Assembly (NCBI GenBank): GCA_963667145.1
Contig: OY762943.1
Location: 49,576 to 113,575 of the forward strand
From: Candidatus Cloacimonadota bacterium
GTDB taxonomy: Bacteria > Cloacimonadota > Cloacimonadia > G963667145
Length of the DNA stretch: 64,000 bases
Reading direction: 5' to 3'
The first letter of the stretch is position 1. Each line of letters begins with the position of its first letter. The notes under the pieces were generated by a model that was not told the DNA's origin, did no database searches, and saw only the letters and a list, made by a program, of their open reading frames with translations. This document shows, in pieces, positions 38,559 to 48,124 of the stretch. The translations under genes were made by a program, and so were the position numbers.

Positions 38559-40469
38559 ATGGGGCTTAGTATTGCACAGAAAATCATCAAAAATCATATT
38601 TTGCATGGAGAGGAAAAAATCGGGAATGAAGTCAGCTTGAGAATCGACCAAACGCTTACTCAGGATGCCACTGGCACGGTTGCGTATTTGCAGTTTGAGG
38701 CAATGGGAGTGAAGCGTGTAAAGACCGAATTGTCCGTTAGTTACGTTGACCACAACACCATTCAATCCGATTTCCGCAATGCTGATGATCATCGCTATTT
38801 GCAATCCATCGCCGCGAAATACGGTTTGCATTTTTCTCGTCCTGGCAACGGAATTTGTCATCAGGTGCATTTGGAAAGATTTGCTGTCCCTGGCAAAACT
38901 CTCATCGGTTCGGACTCGCACACGCCCACAGCTGGAGGAGTTGGTTCACTGGCTATGGGAGCAGGTGGATTGGACGTCGCCATGGCTATGGCTGGTGAAG
39001 GTTTCAACATCAAATATCCAAAAATCTTGGGAATCGAGCTTACAGGGAAATTGCCTGATTGGGTCAGTGCCAAAGACGTTATTTTGGAGGTACTTCGCAG
39101 GATTGACGTGAAAGGTGGAGTTGGCTACATCATCGAATATTTCGGCGATGGAGTGAAAACCCTGAGTGTCCCTGATAGAGCGACTATCACCAACATGGGC
39201 ACGGAAACTGGTTGCACCACTTCGATATTCCCGTCGGATGAAGAGACCAAGAATTTTTTGATCGCACAAGGTAGAGGCAATCAGTGGGTGGAATTGTTGC
39301 CTGACGCTGATGTTAGCTACGACAAGATAATCAAAATTGATTTGAGCGAGTTGGAGCCGTTGGCGGCTTGTCCGCATAGTCCGGGATTGGTTAAGCCTGT
39401 GTCGGAATTGGCAGGAATGCAGGTGCAACAGGTTGGCATTGGTTCGTGCACGAACTCGTCTCTTCGCGATATGTCGGTTGTGGCTGACGTGCTGAATGGC
39501 AAGAGCGTCAGTGATAAGTTGCATTTGATATTGAATCCTGGCAGTCGTCAGGTGCTTGACCATTTGATAGAGGACGGAAAATTCGCTTCGCTGGTGCGTA
39601 GTGGAGCGAGGATTATGGAAAACGCTTGTGGTGCGTGCATCGGCATGGGTGCTGCTCCGTCCAGTGGAGCTGTGAGCGTGCGGACTTACAACCGCAATTT
39701 TTTTGGCAGAAGCGGTACGAAAGACGCCGATGTTTATCTTGTTTCTCCTGAGACAGCTGTTGCCACGGCAATCAAAGGCGAATTTACCGACCCACGAACT
39801 CTGGAGATGCCTTGTCCGCAATTCATTTTGCCCGAGAAGTTTATGATAAACGACAATATGATTATTCCGCCTCAGTCGGGGGAGAATGTGGAAATTTTGC
39901 GAGGTCCGAATATTGTGAAGCTACCCGAATTTGCTCCGTTGGATAGTGAACTAACTGGCAAGGTGCTTCTGAAGTTGGAAGATAATATCACCACCGACCA
40001 CATCATGCCTGCTGGAGCAAAGATTTTGCCCTTGCGTTCCAATATTCCTGAAATTTCCAAGCATGTGTTTGAAGTGGTGGACGAAACTTTCTCCGCAAGA
40101 GCGTTGGCTGAAAACGGAGGATTTGTATTGGCAGGGGAAAATTATGGTCAAGGTTCCAGTCGTGAACATGCGGCTCTTGCACCTAAATATCTTGGAATAA
40201 AAGCTGTTATAACCAAGAGCTTTGCCAGAATCCATCTTGCAAATCTGATAAATTTCGGCATTGTTCCGCTCACTTTTGCCAATCCTGAAGACTATGATAA
40301 AGTCTCTTTAAACCAAGAAATTTCCGTGTTGATTGGCGACTTGAAAGACGAAAAAATTTATATGAAGGTCGGTGACAAGAAAATTGAGCTTCGTCACACA
40401 TTGTCGGATTTGGACGCCGAGATATTAAAAGCTGGAGGCAAATTGGCGTGGGTGAAAGCGAAAAAATAG
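38559..40469 (+). CDS. aconitate hydratase
   Basis: DHNT, GNGICHQVHLE, GSDSHT, IGSCTN, CGACIGMG ([4Fe-4S] ligands), GQGSSREHA. Confidence 0.92.
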   Translation: MGLSIAQKIIKNHILHGEEKIGNEVSLRIDQTLTQDATGTVAYLQFEAMGVKRVKTELSVSYVDHNTIQSDFRNADDHRYLQSIAAKYGLHFSRPGNGICHQVHLERFAVPGKTLIGSDSHTPTAGGVGSLAMGAGGLDVAMAMAGEGFNIKYPKILGIELTGKLPDWVSAKDVILEVLRRIDVKGGVGYIIEYFGDGVKTLSVPDRATITNMGTETGCTTSIFPSDEETKNFLIAQGRGNQWVELLPDADVSYDKIIKIDLSELEPLAACPHSPGLVKPVSELAGMQVQQVGIGSCTNSSLRDMSVVADVLNGKSVSDKLHLILNPGSRQVLDHLIEDGKFASLVRSGARIMENACGACIGMGAAPSSGAVSVRTYNRNFFGRSGTKDADVYLVSPETAVATAIKGEFTDPRTLEMPCPQFILPEKFMINDNMIIPPQSGENVEILRGPNIVKLPEFAPLDSELTGKVLLKLEDNITTDHIMPAGAKILPLRSNIPEISKHVFEVVDETFSARALAENGGFVLAGENYGQGSSREHAALAPKYLGIKAVITKSFARIHLANLINFGIVPLTFANPEDYDKVSLNQEISVLIGDLKDEKIYMKVGDKKIELRHTLSDLDAEILKAGGKLAWVKAKK

Positions 40470-40912
40470 CAAGAGAAGAGAGTCAATTAGCGGAAGTTCG
40501 CTTGCTAAATAAAATCCTGAGCGACCCAGAAGCCAGCAAAATTTACAAGATTTTGAAGGCGGATTTTCAGGTTATTTATTCGCATTCACAGAGTTTGATG
40601 GGTTTGACCACAATTTGCCTAACCATCACAGGATTTTCTGGACCAAGGATTGCATCTTCTGGAGATTTCTCTCGTTATAGCATTGTTCTGGGTTTGTTTT
40701 TCGTGATTTTGTCCGTAATAATTTTGCTCATGGGACCGATTTATCCCAAGTGGATGAGTAGCCTCAAGGAGTTTGACCTCAACAAAGCTTTCACGATTTA
40801 TTTCAAGCGTCGTGACTCCCGAACTCGCAAATATCGCTTGGCTTTGATTAGCTTGGTTTTGGGCTTAAGTTTTTACATGGCAAGTTTATTGGGCTATTTG
40901 TTGTCGCTATAA
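40448..40912 (+). CDS. hypothetical 3-TM membrane protein
   Basis: 154 aa, LTITGFSGPRIA segment, three hydrophobic helices; overlaps the aconitase end. Confidence 0.65.
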   Translation: MGESEKIAREESQLAEVRLLNKILSDPEASKIYKILKADFQVIYSHSQSLMGLTTICLTITGFSGPRIASSGDFSRYSIVLGLFFVILSVIILLMGPIYPKWMSSLKEFDLNKAFTIYFKRRDSRTRKYRLALISLVLGLSFYMASLLGYLLSL

Positions 40913-40952
40913 TTTTTAAGATTTTTAATTATTTTATAAAAGTAGGTTAAGG

Positions 40953-42230
40953 ATGAAAGATTTGATTTTGAGTCTTCTTAGGCAAGAGGTGAAGCCTGCT
41001 GTGGGTTGCACCGAACCAGTGGCGATAGCTTTGGCATCAGCGAAAGCGAGGGAATTTTGCAAATCGGGCGATTTTGAGCAGATAGAATTGATTTTGAGTG
41101 CTAATATCTTCAAAAATGGCTTGGCTGTGGGGATTCCCAAAACGACATTGCGGGGTTTGGAAGTTGCTGCTTTGGTAGGATTTTGGCATGGTGACGCCAG
41201 TGCGGGTTTGGAAGTGCTGCACAGTGTTGACGAGAGCAAGTTGACTAAGATTGACGACTATTTAGCGAAAGTGAAGGTTGCTATCGCCGATACGGACAAA
41301 AAGGTGTTCGTTCGAGTTCGGGTAAAAAGTAGCGACGGGATATTTCAAGCGACAATAGCTGATTTGCATGACAAATTTATCGATTATGGTGATGTCAAAA
41401 ACCTGACTGTGTTGGAGGAAGAAACAGCGATAAATGACGGAGAGTGTGATAAGTTCGCCAAAATTTTTGAGTTGGATGTTTACGATTTAATTCAAGAGGT
41501 GGAGAAAATTCCTGCTTCGGAGATTTTGTTCATGTTGGACGGAGCGAAGATGAACGAAGCTGTGGCGAAAATTGGTTTGTCGCGTCGCTATGGAATGGGC
41601 GTTGGATACACGATTAAGAAGTTGGTGGAAGAGGGCAGGATTGGCAATCACTTGCCGATGATGGCGTCTGAGCTTACCGCTGCGGCTGCTGATGTGCGAA
41701 TGTCGGGTGCGGATATTCCTGTGATGAGTTCCAACGGCAGTGGCAACAACGGTCTCACGGCAATTCTTCCGCTTGTGGCTTATGCCAAGATTTACAATCC
41801 TGACCCTGAGAAGTTGGCGAAAGCCGTGGCGATTTCGCATTTGGTCAATTTCTACATCAAAAACAGCATTGGCAGATTGTCGCCGATTTGCTCGTGCGGA
41901 GTCTCTGCTGGAGCGTCCAGTTCTGCTGGATTGGTGTGGCTTATGGGAGGAAACCGAGAGCAGATAGAAGGTGCGGTGAAAAATGTTTTTGGGAATGTAG
42001 CCGGAATGCTCTGCGATGGTGCGAAGAATGGCTGTTCACTCAAGCTATCCACTGCTGCCTATTTCTCCGTTGCCAGTGCTTTGTTCGCTTCCAAGGGAAC
42101 TATCATCAAAGCAGGAGACGGAATAATAGCTGAATCACTTAGGCAAACCATTCACAATCTCGGCAAAGTGAGTAATCGCGGTTTGTTCGCAGCCGACAGA
42201 GCTATGATAGATGTGATGCAAGAGAATTAA
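40953..42230 (+). CDS. L-cysteine desulfidase / serine dehydratase alpha-like (CdsB/YhaM family)
   Basis: VKPAVGCTEP, MSSNGSGNNG, SPICSCG, GMLCDGAKNGC. Confidence 0.88.
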   Translation: MKDLILSLLRQEVKPAVGCTEPVAIALASAKAREFCKSGDFEQIELILSANIFKNGLAVGIPKTTLRGLEVAALVGFWHGDASAGLEVLHSVDESKLTKIDDYLAKVKVAIADTDKKVFVRVRVKSSDGIFQATIADLHDKFIDYGDVKNLTVLEEETAINDGECDKFAKIFELDVYDLIQEVEKIPASEILFMLDGAKMNEAVAKIGLSRRYGMGVGYTIKKLVEEGRIGNHLPMMASELTAAAADVRMSGADIPVMSSNGSGNNGLTAILPLVAYAKIYNPDPEKLAKAVAISHLVNFYIKNSIGRLSPICSCGVSAGASSSAGLVWLMGGNREQIEGAVKNVFGNVAGMLCDGAKNGCSLKLSTAAYFSVASALFASKGTIIKAGDGIIAESLRQTIHNLGKVSNRGLFAADRAMIDVMQEN

Positions 42231-43561: not shown

Positions 43562-43981
43562 ATGATGAAACCTTTGAGAATATTATTTTTTTGTTCATGT
43601 TGTTTGTTTTTTTTCGGTTGTAAATATTCACTTTCCGCAGAAAATGAGGAATACACTTTTACAGCTAAAATTTATTTTATCAATAAATCTAGTAGGACAG
43701 GCTATTTCTTTTTAAATAGTGATTATTTTTTATTATCGAGTGAAGCTGATGATATGAAGCGTGTAAAAGTTAGCAGTGGCGATTCTTTATTGACTATATT
43801 TACTTGGAGTAGTGAAATCGAAGGAGATTATTATCGGAATTTATATGTTTATTGCAAGTATATGAGTTGGGATAAATTGGACGATAAAGTTTGGATAAAA
43901 GCAGATGCTATTACAAAAATTTACGTAACAGACGTTATTTCCGCTGAAGGCTATGCAACACCTAAATATTTTGATGAATAA
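43562..43981 (+). CDS. putative lipoprotein
   Basis: Short N-terminus with LFFFGC lipobox-like end; AT-rich. Confidence 0.6.
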   Translation: MMKPLRILFFCSCCLFFFGCKYSLSAENEEYTFTAKIYFINKSSRTGYFFLNSDYFLLSSEADDMKRVKVSSGDSLLTIFTWSSEIEGDYYRNLYVYCKYMSWDKLDDKVWIKADAITKIYVTDVISAEGYATPKYFDE

Positions 43982-44945
43982 GATTGTAATTCTAATTTTT
44001 CTTTTTGTCTTTTCTCTGCTATTTGCTTCAGAGGTTGATTCTTTGGAATTTTTTCAAGAAATCAGTGATAGTTTGCATATTGAGAAAATTGGGGAAGAAG
44101 AGGATTTATTTACTAGCAAAAGAATCTATGTTAATTATTCTGGTTATGTATCTGTGCTACATGTCGCAGGTTGGGATGGTTTTTCAGGTTGGGATGTATT
44201 AGAGGATAATTTAACAGATCAGAGATCACGATTTGAGTTTGGCTATAATTTTGGACCTGAATGGTGGAAACATTTTTCTATTTCTTATAGTCCTAATGAA
44301 GATTTATTTTCTGATTTTATGGGAGGTGGAAAGAGTTCATCTATAGAAGTTTATTCATTGGAAATGATTTTTGGAAAAAGTATAAAATATTTGCCTGAAA
44401 TTGTATATTGTGAAGAGAATTTTAAGGCTACAGGAGTTGTAACAGAAGCAAATAGGTTGTATAAAAGAGGAAATCTTTTAGCGGTTGGAGAGACTTTTGA
44501 TGCAGGATTAAAATTTTCTTATTTGGCCGCAGTTTGGAGTTTTTGGAAGTTTTTCTATGTTGGTATTGGAGAATCCCTTTTTGAATTTACTGGTAATAGA
44601 CTTATTAATGTTGATGTTTTTTATATGACAAAACATTACTCGGTAGCAGAAAATTTTGATTACGAAGGAGGGGTAGTTTTATGTGGGTTTCGAAACGATT
44701 TTCATGTTACAAAATATTTAACTTTTCCTGTAAACCTTGGTTTCATTGCTTCTACTGGCGTAGGCATTTATTACAAAACAGGGTATGAAGTAGGGGTACA
44801 GTGTAATTTTTACAAAGATTGCTATGTTAAGTATTGGATAGGATCTTATACATGGGAAATAAGTTCTTTTGATTTTGATAGTGAAATTGTTGATACAGAT
44901 AAGGGTACTACAACAGGTTTGGAGTTTTCAATAGGAATATATTGA
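43974..44945 (+). CDS. putative outer-membrane beta-barrel protein
   Basis: Signal peptide, alternating aromatic/Gly strands, C-terminal GLEFSIGIY beta-signal-like end. Confidence 0.6.
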   Translation: MNKIVILIFLFVFSLLFASEVDSLEFFQEISDSLHIEKIGEEEDLFTSKRIYVNYSGYVSVLHVAGWDGFSGWDVLEDNLTDQRSRFEFGYNFGPEWWKHFSISYSPNEDLFSDFMGGGKSSSIEVYSLEMIFGKSIKYLPEIVYCEENFKATGVVTEANRLYKRGNLLAVGETFDAGLKFSYLAAVWSFWKFFYVGIGESLFEFTGNRLINVDVFYMTKHYSVAENFDYEGGVVLCGFRNDFHVTKYLTFPVNLGFIASTGVGIYYKTGYEVGVQCNFYKDCYVKYWIGSYTWEISSFDFDSEIVDTDKGTTTGLEFSIGIY

Positions 44946-45001
44946 CAATGAGTGATTTCCCAAGATTGTATTGATAAATTGATTTTAAGGAGCAAAGATA
45001 G

Positions 45002-46222
45002 ATGAACAAGATAATTATGGCAAATCCGATAGTGGAGATGGATGGTGACGAGATGACTCGTGTGGTTTGGCCTATGATAAAGGACATTCTGATTAAGCCG
45101 TATGTGGAGCTGAACACGGAGTATTACGATTTGCACATCAAAAATAGGGACAACACGGATGACGAGGTGACTTTTGCGTCTGCTGAGGCTGTGAAAAAGC
45201 ACAAGGTTGGGGTGAAGAATGCGACGATTACGCCGAATGCCGCCAGAGTGAAAGAGTACGATTTGAAAAAAATGTGGAAGAGTCCGAACGGAACTATTCG
45301 GGCGATTTTGGATGGCACAGTTTTCCGCAAGCCGATAATCGTGGGCAATGTGCGTCCGTCTGTTCGTAGCTGGAAAAAGCCGATAATCATTGGGCGTCAC
45401 GCTTATGGCGACGTTTATAAGAACGCTGAGATTTTCGTGAACAAGCCTGGTAAGGCTGAGGTTGTTTTCACGGATGATAAAGGTGTGGAGACTCGGGAAC
45501 TGATTGTAGAGTTCGATGGCAAATCCACTGGCGTTTTGCAAGGAATGCACAATCTGACCGCTTCCATCACTTCTTTCGCTATCAGCTGTTTTGAGTATGC
45601 AATAGACCAAAAAGTCGATTTGTGGTTTTCGGCAAAAGATACGATTTCCAAGACCTACGATCATCACTTTATGGATGTGTTCCAAGAGTTGTATGACGAA
45701 AAATATCGCGAGAAATTTTCTGCTTTGGGCATAGAATATCGCTACTCTTTGATAGACGGTGCGGTTGCCAAAGTGATGCAGTCCGAGGGCGGAGTGCTCT
45801 GGGCTTGCAAAAATTACGATGGCGATGTGATGAGCGATATGTTGGCGTCCGCCTACGGCTCTTTGGCGATGATGAGTTCGGTGTTGGTGTCGCCTCACGG
45901 ATATTTCCTTTATGACGCTGCTCACGGCACGGTGCAAGATTTGTACTATTTGTACCTGAAAGGTGCGGAGGTCTCCATCAATTCCACGGCACTCATCTAT
46001 GCGTGGAGTGGTGCTTTGGGCAAGCGTGGTCAGTTGGATGGCAACGATGAGTTGGTTGATTTTGCTCGGAAGCTGGAACAAGCTGTCGTGCAGACTATAG
46101 AAGAAGGTGTGATGACTGGCGAATTAGCTCCGTTTGCAGAATCTGATAATCTCAAAGTCGTGAATGGCAAAGAGTTTTTGGAAGAAATAGGGAAGAGATT
46201 GGCGAGTTTGATGAATGTCTGA
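45002..46222 (+). CDS. icd: isocitrate dehydrogenase, type II (IDH1-like), predicted NAD-preferring
   Basis: MDGDEMTR, KNATITP, WKSPNGTIR, GRHAYGD, NYDGDVMSD, AAHGTV. Asp-Leu at the coenzyme determinant. Confidence 0.93.
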   Translation: MNKIIMANPIVEMDGDEMTRVVWPMIKDILIKPYVELNTEYYDLHIKNRDNTDDEVTFASAEAVKKHKVGVKNATITPNAARVKEYDLKKMWKSPNGTIRAILDGTVFRKPIIVGNVRPSVRSWKKPIIIGRHAYGDVYKNAEIFVNKPGKAEVVFTDDKGVETRELIVEFDGKSTGVLQGMHNLTASITSFAISCFEYAIDQKVDLWFSAKDTISKTYDHHFMDVFQELYDEKYREKFSALGIEYRYSLIDGAVAKVMQSEGGVLWACKNYDGDVMSDMLASAYGSLAMMSSVLVSPHGYFLYDAAHGTVQDLYYLYLKGAEVSINSTALIYAWSGALGKRGQLDGNDELVDFARKLEQAVVQTIEEGVMTGELAPFAESDNLKVVNGKEFLEEIGKRLASLMNV

Positions 46223-47072
46223 TAAATTGTTCGAGTGCGTCCCCAATATTTCTGAGGGACGAGACGCTTCTGTGGTTGAGGCAATTGCCAAGGCGATAGC
46301 TGATGCAGGAGCAAATTTGTTGGACTATTCCGCGGATATTGACCACAATCGCTCTGTTTTCACGATATCAGGTACAGAGCAAACCATAAAGAACGCAGTT
46401 CGCAGGATGATGGCTTTGGCTATAGATTTGGTGGATATGCGAACTCACGAGGGTGTGCATCCGTGCGTGGGTGCGTTGGACGTGTTGCCGATAGTTCCAT
46501 TGCAAGGTGCGTCAATGTTGGATGCTATTCGATTGATTAGGGAACTTGGCGAGATTTTGTGGCGAGAGTTTGCGGTGCCTTCTGTGGTTTACGATTATTC
46601 TGAAAACAGAAATAGACTGGCGAGTTTCCGCAAAAGTGGTTTCTGTGGTTTGCAAGATGGTAGCTACGATTTTGGTGATAAAAAACATTTCACAGCTGGA
46701 GCAACTGCGATTTCCGCACGTGACTTTCTGATAGCCTACAATGTCAATTTGCTTGGTGGAGATTTGGTTTTAGCCAAAAAAATTGTCAAAGCTCTGCGAG
46801 AGAGCAGTGGGGGATTGGTTGGAGTTAAAGCGTTGGGAATCTATTTGCCTCGGCAGGACATTGTGCAGGTTTCTATGAATTTGACCGACTACAAACAGAC
46901 CTCGATGCGACAAGTTTACGATGCGATTTGTGAGATGATTGCAGGAAAAAATATCGTTCCTCAATCTGAAGTGATTGGCTTAATCCCAGAAGATGCTGTA
47001 ACAAAAGAGGATGTTGAAGTGTTGGGATTGCAGGGAGTTAAGAAGTTGAGTTTGACAGGGGAATTAGTTTAA
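46215..47072 (+). CDS. ftcD: glutamate formimidoyltransferase
   Basis: ECVPNISEGRD, DHNRSV, H.GVHPCVGALDV, LIAYNVNL, QVSMNL. Confidence 0.88.
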   Translation: MSDKLFECVPNISEGRDASVVEAIAKAIADAGANLLDYSADIDHNRSVFTISGTEQTIKNAVRRMMALAIDLVDMRTHEGVHPCVGALDVLPIVPLQGASMLDAIRLIRELGEILWREFAVPSVVYDYSENRNRLASFRKSGFCGLQDGSYDFGDKKHFTAGATAISARDFLIAYNVNLLGGDLVLAKKIVKALRESSGGLVGVKALGIYLPRQDIVQVSMNLTDYKQTSMRQVYDAICEMIAGKNIVPQSEVIGLIPEDAVTKEDVEVLGLQGVKKLSLTGELV

Positions 47073-48124
47073 ATTATTTTCCAATGCCCTGTTTTGTCGC
47101 TTCCTACTCGCTCAATTTTTCCGTCTTCCTTTAGTTTTCTTAATCTTCTTTTTGCTGTGCTTAAGCTTATTTGTAAATTTTCGCTTATTTCGGTTGCTGT
47201 TATTTTGTTGTTTAATGTTATTAACTGAAGTACAGTGTCATTTGCAGTATTTATTTTTGAATATACAGTGTCGGATTTTGGTTTTATAGTTTCATTTTGT
47301 GTGTTTACAGTGTCAAATTTGACATGCATTTTCCTGTTTTTAAGCAAATTATTTTCACCAAGCAATAAGTTTGAGAGAAATTCAATCAGAAATTTTTCAG
47401 TTTTGTGAATTTTTTTGGATAAATCCTCATAGTTAGCTCTCACAAGTGCATTGCGGAAATACCATGAATGTTTTTCAAACAAATCATTGTCTACATTTTT
47501 AAAACCGAGTTTACGAAGATATTTAATAAGAAAAATTGCTGTTGTTCGTGTGTTTCCTTCTCCAAAAATATGAATTTGCCACAAATTGCTGACGAAATAC
47601 GCAATGTGTTCGATAATCTCTTTTTGATTTAATCCTTTGTAGCTGAATTTTTTTTCTTGTTCAAAGTCGAATTCTAAAGTTGCTTTTAAACTTTCGGCAC
47701 TTGCATATAGAACGGTTTCCCCGTTCAATATCCATTCTTTTTTTGTAATATTGTAATCGCGAATTTTACCCGCGTAGCTGTAGATATCTTGGAATAGTCG
47801 TCTATGAATAGTTAGATATTCGATTGGAGAAAATGTGAAAGTCTGTTCACTCAAAATTTCAACAATTCGTGCAGAGACCTTGTCAGCTTCTTCTGTCCTA
47901 TCTTTGCCTTCTCTTACAAAACTTTTCTTGTAATAATTGTTTATCAGGTTTTTTACTTCATAAATGGTTATATTTCCTTCGATATTTTGCTTAGCTTTTT
48001 CTAGCAAATAAACTGAAGGTGTTAGCCCATCTACTTTTTGCAATCCGATAGCAGTTTTCCAAATCTTTGCTTTTTCCGCTTTGGTCGGCTCGCTTTGTCT
48101 GATATATTCGTCGAAATTATACAT
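47069..48124 (-). CDS. Fic-domain protein with N-terminal VbhA-like segment and C-terminal HTH
   Basis: HIFGEGNTRTT Fic-like motif, AIGLQKVDGLTPS N-terminal segment, C-terminal ISLSTAKRRL HTH. Confidence 0.85.
   Translation of the reverse strand: MYNFDEYIRQSEPTKAEKAKIWKTAIGLQKVDGLTPSVYLLEKAKQNIEGNITIYEVKNLINNYYKKSFVREGKDRTEEADKVSARIVEILSEQTFTFSPIEYLTIHRRLFQDIYSYAGKIRDYNITKKEWILNGETVLYASAESLKATLEFDFEQEKKFSYKGLNQKEIIEHIAYFVSNLWQIHIFGEGNTRTTAIFLIKYLRKLGFKNVDNDLFEKHSWYFRNALVRANYEDLSKKIHKTEKFLIEFLSNLLLGENNLLKNRKMHVKFDTVNTQNETIKPKSDTVYSKINTANDTVLQLITLNNKITATEISENLQISLSTAKRRLRKLKEDGKIERVGSDKTGHWKII

What the first reader, a model, noticed from the sequence alone, without database searches (positions are those of the whole stretch)
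45002..46222. Type II (IDH1-like) isocitrate dehydrogenase with an NAD-type coenzyme signature
Seen: AAHGTVQDLYY, with GAT TTG at 45938-45943, where NADP enzymes have AAHGTVTRHY (human R314/H315). Also VAKVMQS where NADP enzymes have AQAMKS (K260). Known: Arg-His binds the 2'-phosphate, and the few characterised NAD-specific type II IDHs (a Congregibacter enzyme and marine prasinophyte algal enzymes) have Asp plus a hydrophobic residue there. Inference: a rare NAD-specific type II IDH in a different bacterial lineage, which automated annotation would probably label NADP-dependent.
Basis: partly seen in the sequence, partly recalled or inferred. Interest (0 to 1): 0.58.

Follow-up and report, generated by a model that had tools for sequence, protein, structure and literature searches.

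The report
NADP-type isocitrate dehydrogenase switched to NAD
An uncultivated anaerobe (Cloacimonadota) has an otherwise ordinary "NADP-type" isocitrate dehydrogenase in which the residues that grip the extra phosphate of NADP are replaced by those of NAD-using enzymes; the same changes arose independently in at least two other lineages, so it probably makes NADH although databases would call it NADP-dependent.

Summary
ORF 45002-46222 (+) encodes a 406-aa type II isocitrate dehydrogenase (IDH) reading AAHGTVQDLYY, with GAT TTG at 45938-45943.

It is about 67% identical to solved bacterial NADP-IDHs. It differs from 261 NADP-type relatives at all six positions whose mutation converted Bifidobacterium longum IDH from NADP to NAD (human IDH1 numbering 253/257/260/314/315/327). 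Here these read G-K-Q-D-L-I instead of D-R-K/R-R/K-H-T/S. Asp-Leu is the pair found in the kinetically NAD-specific Congregibacter and Phaeodactylum enzymes. All substrate and metal ligands are intact, and dN/dS is about 0.04.

It is the only IDH in a 1.54-Mb Cloacimonadota genome. All six genomes of its genus have it with this signature, but none of 195 other Cloacimonadota searched, so it was probably acquired horizontally.

Four more Asp-Leu IDHs found in metagenomes sit elsewhere in the NADP clade. AU tests reject common origin, giving at least three independent switches. These also share changes at positions 247 and 312.

So this is not a member of the known "ancestral" NAD type II groups. 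It is a secondary NADP-to-NAD reversal inside the canonical clade. I found no description of this, and earlier notes of this scan show none on other DNA. Coenzyme preference is predicted, not measured.

The parts
45002..46222 (+). icd: 406-aa type II (IDH1-like) isocitrate dehydrogenase with an NAD-type coenzyme signature; the only IDH in the genome
   Evidence: PF00180 finds only this gene and leuB in the genome. No monomeric IDH and no type I IDH.
44987..44992 (+). Shine-Dalgarno-like AAGGAG, 9 nt before the ATG at 45002
   Evidence: Read directly from the sequence. The N-terminus aligns from residue 1 with homologues.
45938..45943 (+). Codons GAT TTG = Asp313-Leu314 (human IDH1 Arg314-His315), the first-layer coenzyme determinants
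   Evidence: ClIDH Asp487/Leu488 and PtIDH1 Asp324/Leu325 are kinetically NAD-specific.
45740..45781 (+). Codons 247-260 (strand plus helix contributed by the partner subunit): Arg247, Ser249, Gly253, Lys257 and Gln260 replace Phe, Thr, Asp, Arg and Lys/Arg of NADP-type relatives
   Evidence: The roles of 253, 257 and 260 in binding the 2'-phosphate or pairing with Arg314 are from PMC4813160.
45977..45979 (+). Codon 326 = Ile (human Thr327), a second-layer adenine-pocket position
   Evidence: T327A was needed for NAD activity in engineered BlIDH.
46215..47072 (+). ftcD-like glutamate formimidoyltransferase; its start overlaps the icd stop by 8 nt (ATGTCTGA)
   Evidence: The same overlap occurs in relative L003.
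38559..40469 (+). Aconitase, co-directional and 4.5 kb upstream: the preceding step of the oxidative TCA branch
   Evidence: The same order occurs in L003.

Best explanation
The gene encodes a catalytically competent homodimer-type (type II, IDH1-like) isocitrate dehydrogenase whose coenzyme pocket has been re-tuned from NADP+ to NAD+. [quoted passage not shown] Leu314 removes the His that binds the phosphate. Gln260 removes a phosphate-binding Lys/Arg from the partner subunit. Gly253 removes the Asp that pairs with Arg314 in NADP enzymes and would clash with the new Asp. Ile326, together with Arg247 and Ser249, repacks the adenine side of the pocket. An ancestor of this Cloacimonadota genus probably acquired the gene horizontally from an NADP-type donor. 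It now serves as the sole IDH of a citrate synthase, aconitase, IDH branch that supplies 2-oxoglutarate and glutamate and yields NADH. Shown here: the residue pattern, its conservation, its convergence in other lineages, and the gene's distribution. Inferred: the NAD+ preference, the atomic roles of the residues, and the physiological direction.
For: (1) Family and integrity. NF006156 scores 599 bits and TIGR00127 491 bits. The protein is about 67% identical over its full length to the solved NADP-IDHs 4aou and 2uxq. T77, S94, N96, R100, R109, R132, Y139, K212, D252, D275 and D279 are all present. dN 0.033 against dS 0.764 versus the closest species.
(2) Coenzyme positions. All six positions whose mutation (D253A/S257K/K260Q/R314D/H315I/T327A) changed B. 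longum IDH from a 567-fold NADP to a 4-fold NAD preference (PMC4813160) are changed here, to G/K/Q/D/L/I. Three are identical to the engineered residues and to OtIDH. The 261 NADP-type relatives are invariant in kind at these positions.
(3) The Asp-Leu pair. ClIDH has the same pair, shows no detectable NADP activity, and D487R/L488H reverses its specificity. PtIDH1 has it too. OlIDH has Asp-Met. The genome's own NAD-type LeuB has HGSAPDIAG.
(4) Unbiased scan. Clade-specific departures at otherwise invariant columns fall almost entirely in three segments that hold the six known coenzyme positions: 247-260, 303-314 and 324-326.
(5) Convergence. P0122, P0159, L101 and L100 carry D-L, a non-Asp residue at 253 and Ala at 327, and their closest relatives are NADP-type. 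The overlap of rare-residue columns has p of about 1e-5. With the trait columns removed, the tree needs 5 state changes. AU tests reject a single clade (delta lnL 111, p 0.00026; delta lnL 99, p 1e-4).
(6) Distribution. The gene is in 6 of 6 genomes of the genus and 0 of 195 other Cloacimonadota. It is the only IDH in the genome. Citrate synthase, aconitase and glutamate dehydrogenases are present. NAD kinase is present, so NADP is available and its disuse is specific to this enzyme.
Against: No enzyme assay exists. The engineered BlIDH sextuple mutant reached only a 4-fold NAD preference, so the signature does not guarantee strict specificity. Position 327 is a bulky Ile or Met here, not the Ala of the engineered enzyme and of the other four natural lineages. 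Two basic residues, Lys257 and the new Arg247, remain near the site and could in principle still bind a 2'-phosphate. The roles of positions 247, 249, 303, 305, 324 and 374 could not be checked structurally, because the AlphaFold model from a 12-row alignment was poor (pLDDT 66.6) and no dimer or ligand model was available. The donor of the transfer is unresolved (support below 95 around the clade).
Confidence: 0.78

Rival explanations
1. The enzyme has dual specificity or still prefers NADP+. The Asp-Leu change weakens NADP binding, but Lys257 and Arg247 from the partner subunit compensate.
For: BlIDH R314D alone stayed NADP-preferring (9.5-fold), and the sextuple mutant was only 4-fold NAD-preferring. 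Natural dual-specificity IDHs exist (UmIDH and MfIDH, titles). Arg247 is a new positive charge specific to this clade.
Against: All natural type II enzymes with Asp plus Leu or Met that have been assayed are NAD-specific. Four other lineages reach D-L without a basic residue at 247 (L, L, D, Q). All phosphate ligands named in the literature are lost.
Confidence: 0.15
2. The substitutions reflect relaxed selection or a new substrate or function after horizontal transfer, not a coenzyme change.
For: The clade has a long stem branch (0.32-0.34 substitutions per site) and a two-residue insertion (Ser175-Thr176) in the clasp region.
Against: dN/dS is about 0.04. All isocitrate and metal ligands are conserved. 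It is the sole IDH, next to aconitase, in a genome with citrate synthase. The changes sit in the three segments that hold the known coenzyme positions and recur in unrelated lineages.
Confidence: 0.04
3. It is a surviving member of the 'ancestral' NAD-specific type II groups (Congregibacter-like or algal OtIDH-like), not a reversal.
For: It shares the Asp-Leu pair and the K257/Q260 residues with those enzymes.
Against: The match to 6ixl (OtIDH) is E 1.5e-43 and to 6lkz E 5e-38, against 3e-174 to NADP enzymes. It lacks the 163-residue insertion of ClIDH. It is nested within a 38-row clade (SH-aLRT 99, 94) whose other members all carry the NADP signature, apart from two other D-L proteins, P0122 and P0159.
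Confidence: 0.03

Closest known systems
Bacterial type II NADP-IDHs with solved structures: Clostridium thermocellum (4aou), Desulfotalea psychrophila (2uxq), Thermotoga maritima (1zor)
   Same: About 400 aa, collinear over the full length, about 67% identity to 4aou and 2uxq, E 3e-174 to 6e-150. Same substrate and metal ligands, same family models.
   Different: They have Asp253, Arg257, Arg/Lys260, Arg314, His315 and Thr327. The window protein has Gly, Lys, Gln, Asp, Leu and Ile, plus clade-specific changes at 247, 249, 303, 305, 324 and 374.
Congregibacter litoralis KT71 NAD-IDH (ClIDH; PLoS One 2015, PMC4420465)
   Same: A bacterial type II IDH with Asp-Leu at the specificity site. NAD-specific by kinetics, and converted to NADP use by D487R/L488H.
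   Different: 580 aa, homohexamer, with a 163-residue insertion. Only 25-35% identical to typical type II IDHs and placed in a separate, presumed ancestral clade. The window protein is a typical 406-aa form inside the NADP clade.
Algal type II NAD-IDHs (Ostreococcus tauri/lucimarinus, Micromonas, Phaeodactylum PtIDH1; PDB 6ixl, 6lkz)
   Same: Asp-Met or Asp-Leu at 314/315. OtIDH has Ala279, Lys283 and Gln286 at positions 253, 257 and 260; the window protein shares Lys and Gln.
   Different: Distant in sequence (E 1.5e-43 and 5e-38). Eukaryotic, mitochondrial and allosteric, and PtIDH1 carries an EF-hand.
Engineered Bifidobacterium longum IDH D253A/S257K/K260Q/R314D/H315I/T327A (PMC4813160)
   Same: The same six positions are altered in a canonical type II NADP-IDH scaffold. 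K257, Q260 and D314 are identical.
   Different: It is a laboratory construct with only a 4-fold NAD preference. The natural proteins use Gly/Thr/Ala/Ser/Asn at 253, Leu at 315 and Ile/Met/Ala at 327, and add changes at 247 and, in 4 of 5 lineages, V312I.

Membership tests
Type II (IDH1/IDH2-like, homodimeric) isocitrate dehydrogenase | Scores above the curated cut-off of the family models | tested here: met
   NF006156 scores 599.2 bits (cut-off 335) and TIGR00127 491.2 bits (cut-off 397) over the full length. PF00180 scores 162.6 bits.
Type II (IDH1/IDH2-like, homodimeric) isocitrate dehydrogenase | Isocitrate and metal ligands (T77, S94, N96, R100, R109, R132, Y139, K212', D252', D275, D279) | tested here: met
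   All eleven are present in P0001 and invariant in the 12-row alignment.
Type II (IDH1/IDH2-like, homodimeric) isocitrate dehydrogenase | Homodimer with a type II clasp domain | not testable with these tools
   Collinear with the dimeric enzymes 4aou and 2uxq. There is a two-residue insertion in the clasp region. The monomer model was poor.
NADP-dependent type II IDH (EC 1.1.1.42), the name annotation would give | Arg314 and His315, plus Lys260' and Asp253', which bind the 2'-phosphate of NADP | tested here: not met
   The protein has D313/L314, Q260 and G253 instead. The 261 relatives have K/R, H, K/R and D. The roles of these residues are from PMC4813160.
NAD-specific type II IDH as a functional class (EC 1.1.1.41) | Asp plus Leu or Met at positions 314/315 | tested here: met
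   AAHGTVQDLYY. ClIDH has D487/L488, PtIDH1 D324/L325 and OlIDH D326/M327.
NAD-specific type II IDH as a functional class (EC 1.1.1.41) | Kinetic preference for NAD+ over NADP+ | not testable with these tools
   Needs purified enzyme.
Known NAD type II clades (ClIDH-like; OtIDH-like) | Phylogenetic membership and high identity to those enzymes (ClIDH relatives are 67-89% identical to ClIDH), and for the ClIDH group the 163-residue insertion | tested here: not met
   6ixl E 1.5e-43 and 6lkz E 5e-38, against NADP enzymes at E 1e-174. The length is 406 aa. The protein is nested among NADP-type sequences.

The most novel reading that the evidence does not exclude
Canonical type II NADP-IDHs have reverted to NAD+ in nature at least three times: in a Cloacimonadota genus, in a Deltaproteobacteria/Syntrophales-like lineage, and in a Clostridia-like lineage, with a further divergent lineage possible. 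Each time they used the residue set that protein engineers identified, plus two undescribed recurrent positions (247, and V312I). The Cloacimonadota enzyme is a strictly NAD-specific sole IDH acquired by horizontal transfer. This runs against the usual picture in which NAD use in IDH is only ancestral and NADP use derived.
Probability: 0.55. Interest if true: 0.62.

Novelty: new variant of a known kind. Interest (0 to 1): 0.55.

Why it matters
The IDH literature treats NAD use as the ancestral state and NADP use as a one-way adaptation, and it places all NAD-specific type II enzymes in separate "ancestral" clades. A natural, repeated NADP-to-NAD reversal inside the canonical clade would matter in four ways.

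- It would show that the switch runs in both directions in nature.
- It would supply natural solutions to a problem that engineering solved only weakly (4-fold preference). These include new candidate determinants at 247, 249 and 312, and the choice of residue at 253 and 327.
- It would flag a systematic annotation error, because the equivalog model names these proteins NADP-dependent.
- It would change redox bookkeeping in metabolic reconstructions of these anaerobes, whose only IDH would give NADH rather than NADPH.

Tried and rejected
- **Motif-region search.** A protein search restricted to residues 296-340 retrieved only 43 candidates. It still found P0122.
- **Metagenome pattern scan.** The scan for H-G-T-[VI]-Q-D-[LF]-Y-Y gave 4 loci. 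Two (L098, L099) are chance matches in unrelated frames, and two (L100, L101) are real IDHs.
- **NAD-IDH as a phylum trait.** Rejected. The only other IDHs found in 101 Cloacimonadota are type I enzymes with the NADP signature HGTAPKY...TYDLERQ.
- **Catabolic or reductive role.** A role linked to citrate lyase or histidine breakdown is not supported in this genome, which has no CitF and no urocanase. L100, however, sits beside citX and two aconitases.
- **Transhydrogenase.** PntB was not found.
- **Recent transfer.** GC content of icd (0.46-0.47) matches aconitase and other core genes, so there is no compositional trace of recent transfer.
- **Structure.** The AlphaFold2 model from the 12-row alignment was too poor (mean pLDDT 66.6) to map residues, so no fold search was run.
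- **Donor of the transfer.** Unresolved, because branches around the clade have support below 95.
- **Promoter and terminator scans.** Uninformative, at shuffle level.

Full report
**Observation.** The ORF at 45002-46222 (+) encodes 406 residues. A Shine-Dalgarno-like AAGGAG sits 9 nt upstream of the start. The peptide AAHGTVQDLYY is present, with GAT TTG at 45938-45943, and VAKVMQS lies at residues 254-260.

**What the protein is.** It matches Pfam Iso_dh. It also matches, over its full length and well above the curated cut-offs, the NCBIfam equivalogs NF006156 (599 bits, "NADP-dependent isocitrate dehydrogenase") and TIGR00127 (491 bits).
- The best solved relatives are the bacterial type II NADP-IDHs of Clostridium thermocellum (4aou, E 3e-174), Desulfotalea psychrophila (2uxq) and Thermotoga maritima (1zor), followed by human IDH1/IDH2.
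- The NAD-specific algal type II enzymes are far more distant (6ixl E 1.5e-43, 6lkz E 5e-38).
- The alignments are ungapped around the motif and put D-L opposite R-H.
- All eleven isocitrate and metal ligands are intact.
- Against the closest species, dN is 0.033 and dS 0.764, so the gene is under strong purifying selection.

**The coenzyme site.** The B. longum IDH paper (PMC4813160) names six positions that touch the 2'-phosphate of NADP directly or indirectly: 253, 257, 260, 314, 315 and 327.
- It shows that D253A/S257K/K260Q/R314D/H315I/T327A turns a 567-fold NADP preference into a 4-fold NAD preference.
- In P0001's own numbering these positions are 253, 257, 260, 313, 314 and 326, and they read G, K, Q, D, L, I.
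- In 261 full-length relatives with an NADP signature they read D (261), R (260), K/R (261), K/R (261), H (261) and T/S (261).
- I also scanned every column for residues carried by the clade but present in 2% or fewer of those relatives. This returned 26 columns. Those where the relatives are near-invariant are 224, 247, 249, 253, 257, 260, 303, 305, 313, 314, 324, 326 and 374. All but 224 and 374 lie in the three segments that hold the six known positions.
- Asp-Leu is the pair in ClIDH, which has no detectable NADP activity and is reversed by D487R/L488H. PtIDH1, an NAD-dependent enzyme, has it too. OlIDH has Asp-Met.
- The genome's own NAD-type LeuB reads HGSAPDIAG at the equivalent site.

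**Organism and distribution.** The window lies in a single-contig 1.54-Mb genome that is 98.65% complete.
- The only close species-level relative in the genome collection is a "Candidatus Cloacimonadota bacterium" MAG, in agreement with earlier notes on this genome.
- PF00180 finds only this gene and leuB. There is no monomeric IDH and no type I IDH, so this is the sole IDH.
- In a sample of 201 Cloacimonadota genomes, a type II IDH occurs in all 6 genomes of this genus and in none of the other 195. All six carry G-K-Q-D-L-I/M.
- Three other Cloacimonadota have a type I IDH with an NADP signature, encoded beside citrate synthase.
- Horizontal acquisition by the ancestor of the genus is therefore the simplest reading.
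- GC content gives no sign of recent transfer, and the donor is unresolved.

**Convergence.** A motif-region protein search and a metagenome pattern scan found four more Asp-Leu type II IDHs.

| Protein | Signature at the six positions | Closest relatives |
|---|---|---|
| P0122 | T-R-Q-D-L-A | NADP-signature proteins at 80-84% identity, named Deltaproteobacteria/Syntrophales by their sources; only 63% identical to P0001 |
| P0159 | A-K-H-D-L-A | Same group as P0122 |
| L101 | S-R-K-D-L-A | Clostridia-like NADP-IDHs at about 70% |
| L100 | N-K-R-D-L-A | About 56% identical to everything |

- With the trait columns removed, quick IQ-TREE trees place the Cloacimonadota clade (support 100) apart from the 24-row clade (support 100) that holds P0122 and P0159. 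L101 falls in a third clade (support 97). The Asp-Leu state needs five changes on the tree.
- AU tests reject all Asp-Leu rows as one clade (delta lnL 111, p 0.00026).
- AU tests also reject L101 + P0122 + P0159 as one clade (delta lnL 99, p 1e-4).
- I therefore count at least three origins.
- I chose both test groups after seeing the tree, which weakens the p-values somewhat. The identity figures say the same thing independently.
- Across the five lineages the recurrently changed columns are 247 (5 of 5), 253 (5 of 5), 327 (5 of 5), 312 V-to-I (4 of 5), 257, 260 and 249 (3 of 5 each), plus 314/315 by definition.
- The overlap of rare-residue columns between the Cloacimonadota clade and P0122 or P0159 has a hypergeometric p of about 1e-5.
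- Positions 247 and 312 are not in the engineered set. They are new candidate determinants.

**Mechanism (inferred).** Asp at 314 binds the ribose hydroxyls of NAD+ and repels the 2'-phosphate, and Leu removes the His ligand; both points follow the cited papers. Asp253' pairs with Arg314 in NADP enzymes. I infer that it would sit next to the new Asp, which would explain why it is lost in all five lineages. Gln or His at 260 removes a phosphate ligand. Position 327 repacks the adenine pocket, by analogy with V351A in E. coli IDH.

**Physiology (inferred).** The genome has citrate synthase, an aconitase 4.5 kb upstream in the window, two tandem glutamate dehydrogenases and an NAD kinase. It has no citrate lyase alpha subunit, no urocanase and no PntB. 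The likeliest role is the oxidative branch to 2-oxoglutarate and glutamate, yielding NADH.

**Caveats.**
- There are no kinetic data.
- The engineered precedent gave only weak NAD preference.
- Ile or Met at 327 differs from the Ala seen elsewhere.
- Lys257 and Arg247 leave dual specificity possible.
- The AlphaFold model was poor (pLDDT 66.6), so nothing was mapped in three dimensions.

**Comparison and novelty.** By function this looks like the known NAD-specific type II IDHs. By descent it is not one of them. It fails membership in the ClIDH-like and OtIDH-like clades and sits inside the canonical NADP clade.
- The papers I could search describe type II NAD-IDHs only as separate, presumed ancestral groups.
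- The Cloacimonadota genome surveys mention IDH only by presence or absence.
- Earlier notes of this scan record the acn...icd-ftcD cluster on this window (e1-5092894) and a ClIDH-like enzyme elsewhere, but no canonical-type Asp-Leu IDH.
- I rate it a new variant of a known kind, of moderate interest.

Noticed in passing
window 46215-47072 (+): The ftcD-like glutamate formimidoyltransferase (TIGR02024, 239 bits) overlaps the icd stop by 8 nt, and the same overlap occurs in relative L003. The genome has no urocanase, so its formimino substrate is unclear; formiminoglycine from purine breakdown is one possibility.
   Followed up: partly
G000:C1:267926-270276 (outside the window; loci L090, L091): Two tandem 455-aa glutamate dehydrogenase genes. 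They might differ in coenzyme use, which would matter for the fate of NADH from the IDH.
   Followed up: no
L100:1357-7472: In a 67.8-kb metagenome contig, a divergent Asp-Leu IDH (N-K-R-D-L-A) follows two aconitase-family paralogues (767 and 645 aa) and faces a citX gene (citrate lyase holo-ACP synthesis). This hints at a catabolic citrate/isocitrate context for that lineage.
   Followed up: partly
P0277 (406 aa, 59% identical to P0001): This representative of a 50%-identity cluster has Asp at position 314 but keeps His315 (signature D-K-R-D-H-S). It could be an intermediate or dual-specificity state.
   Followed up: no
window 45524-45529 (codons 175-176): A two-residue insertion (Ser-Thr) in the clasp region is present in all six proteins of the genus and absent from all 261 relatives.
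   Followed up: no
L095, L096, L097 (other Cloacimonadota genomes G065, G082, G049): The few other Cloacimonadota with an IDH have a type I NADP-signature enzyme 3-4 kb from a full-length citrate synthase on the same contig. This is a different solution for the same pathway branch.
   Followed up: partly
window 43953-44945 (+) and 47069-48124 (-): The icd-ftcD pair (GC 0.46-0.47) is flanked by low-GC genes (0.30-0.32). One is a 330-aa protein with a hydrophobic N-terminus and no Pfam match. The other is a Fic-domain protein fused to a winged-helix HTH.
   Followed up: no
window 40448-42230 (+): Between aconitase and icd lie a 154-aa protein with no Pfam match, whose gene overlaps the end of the aconitase gene, and an SDH_alpha-family protein (serine dehydratase or cysteine desulfidase-like). 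This order is conserved in L003.
   Followed up: no
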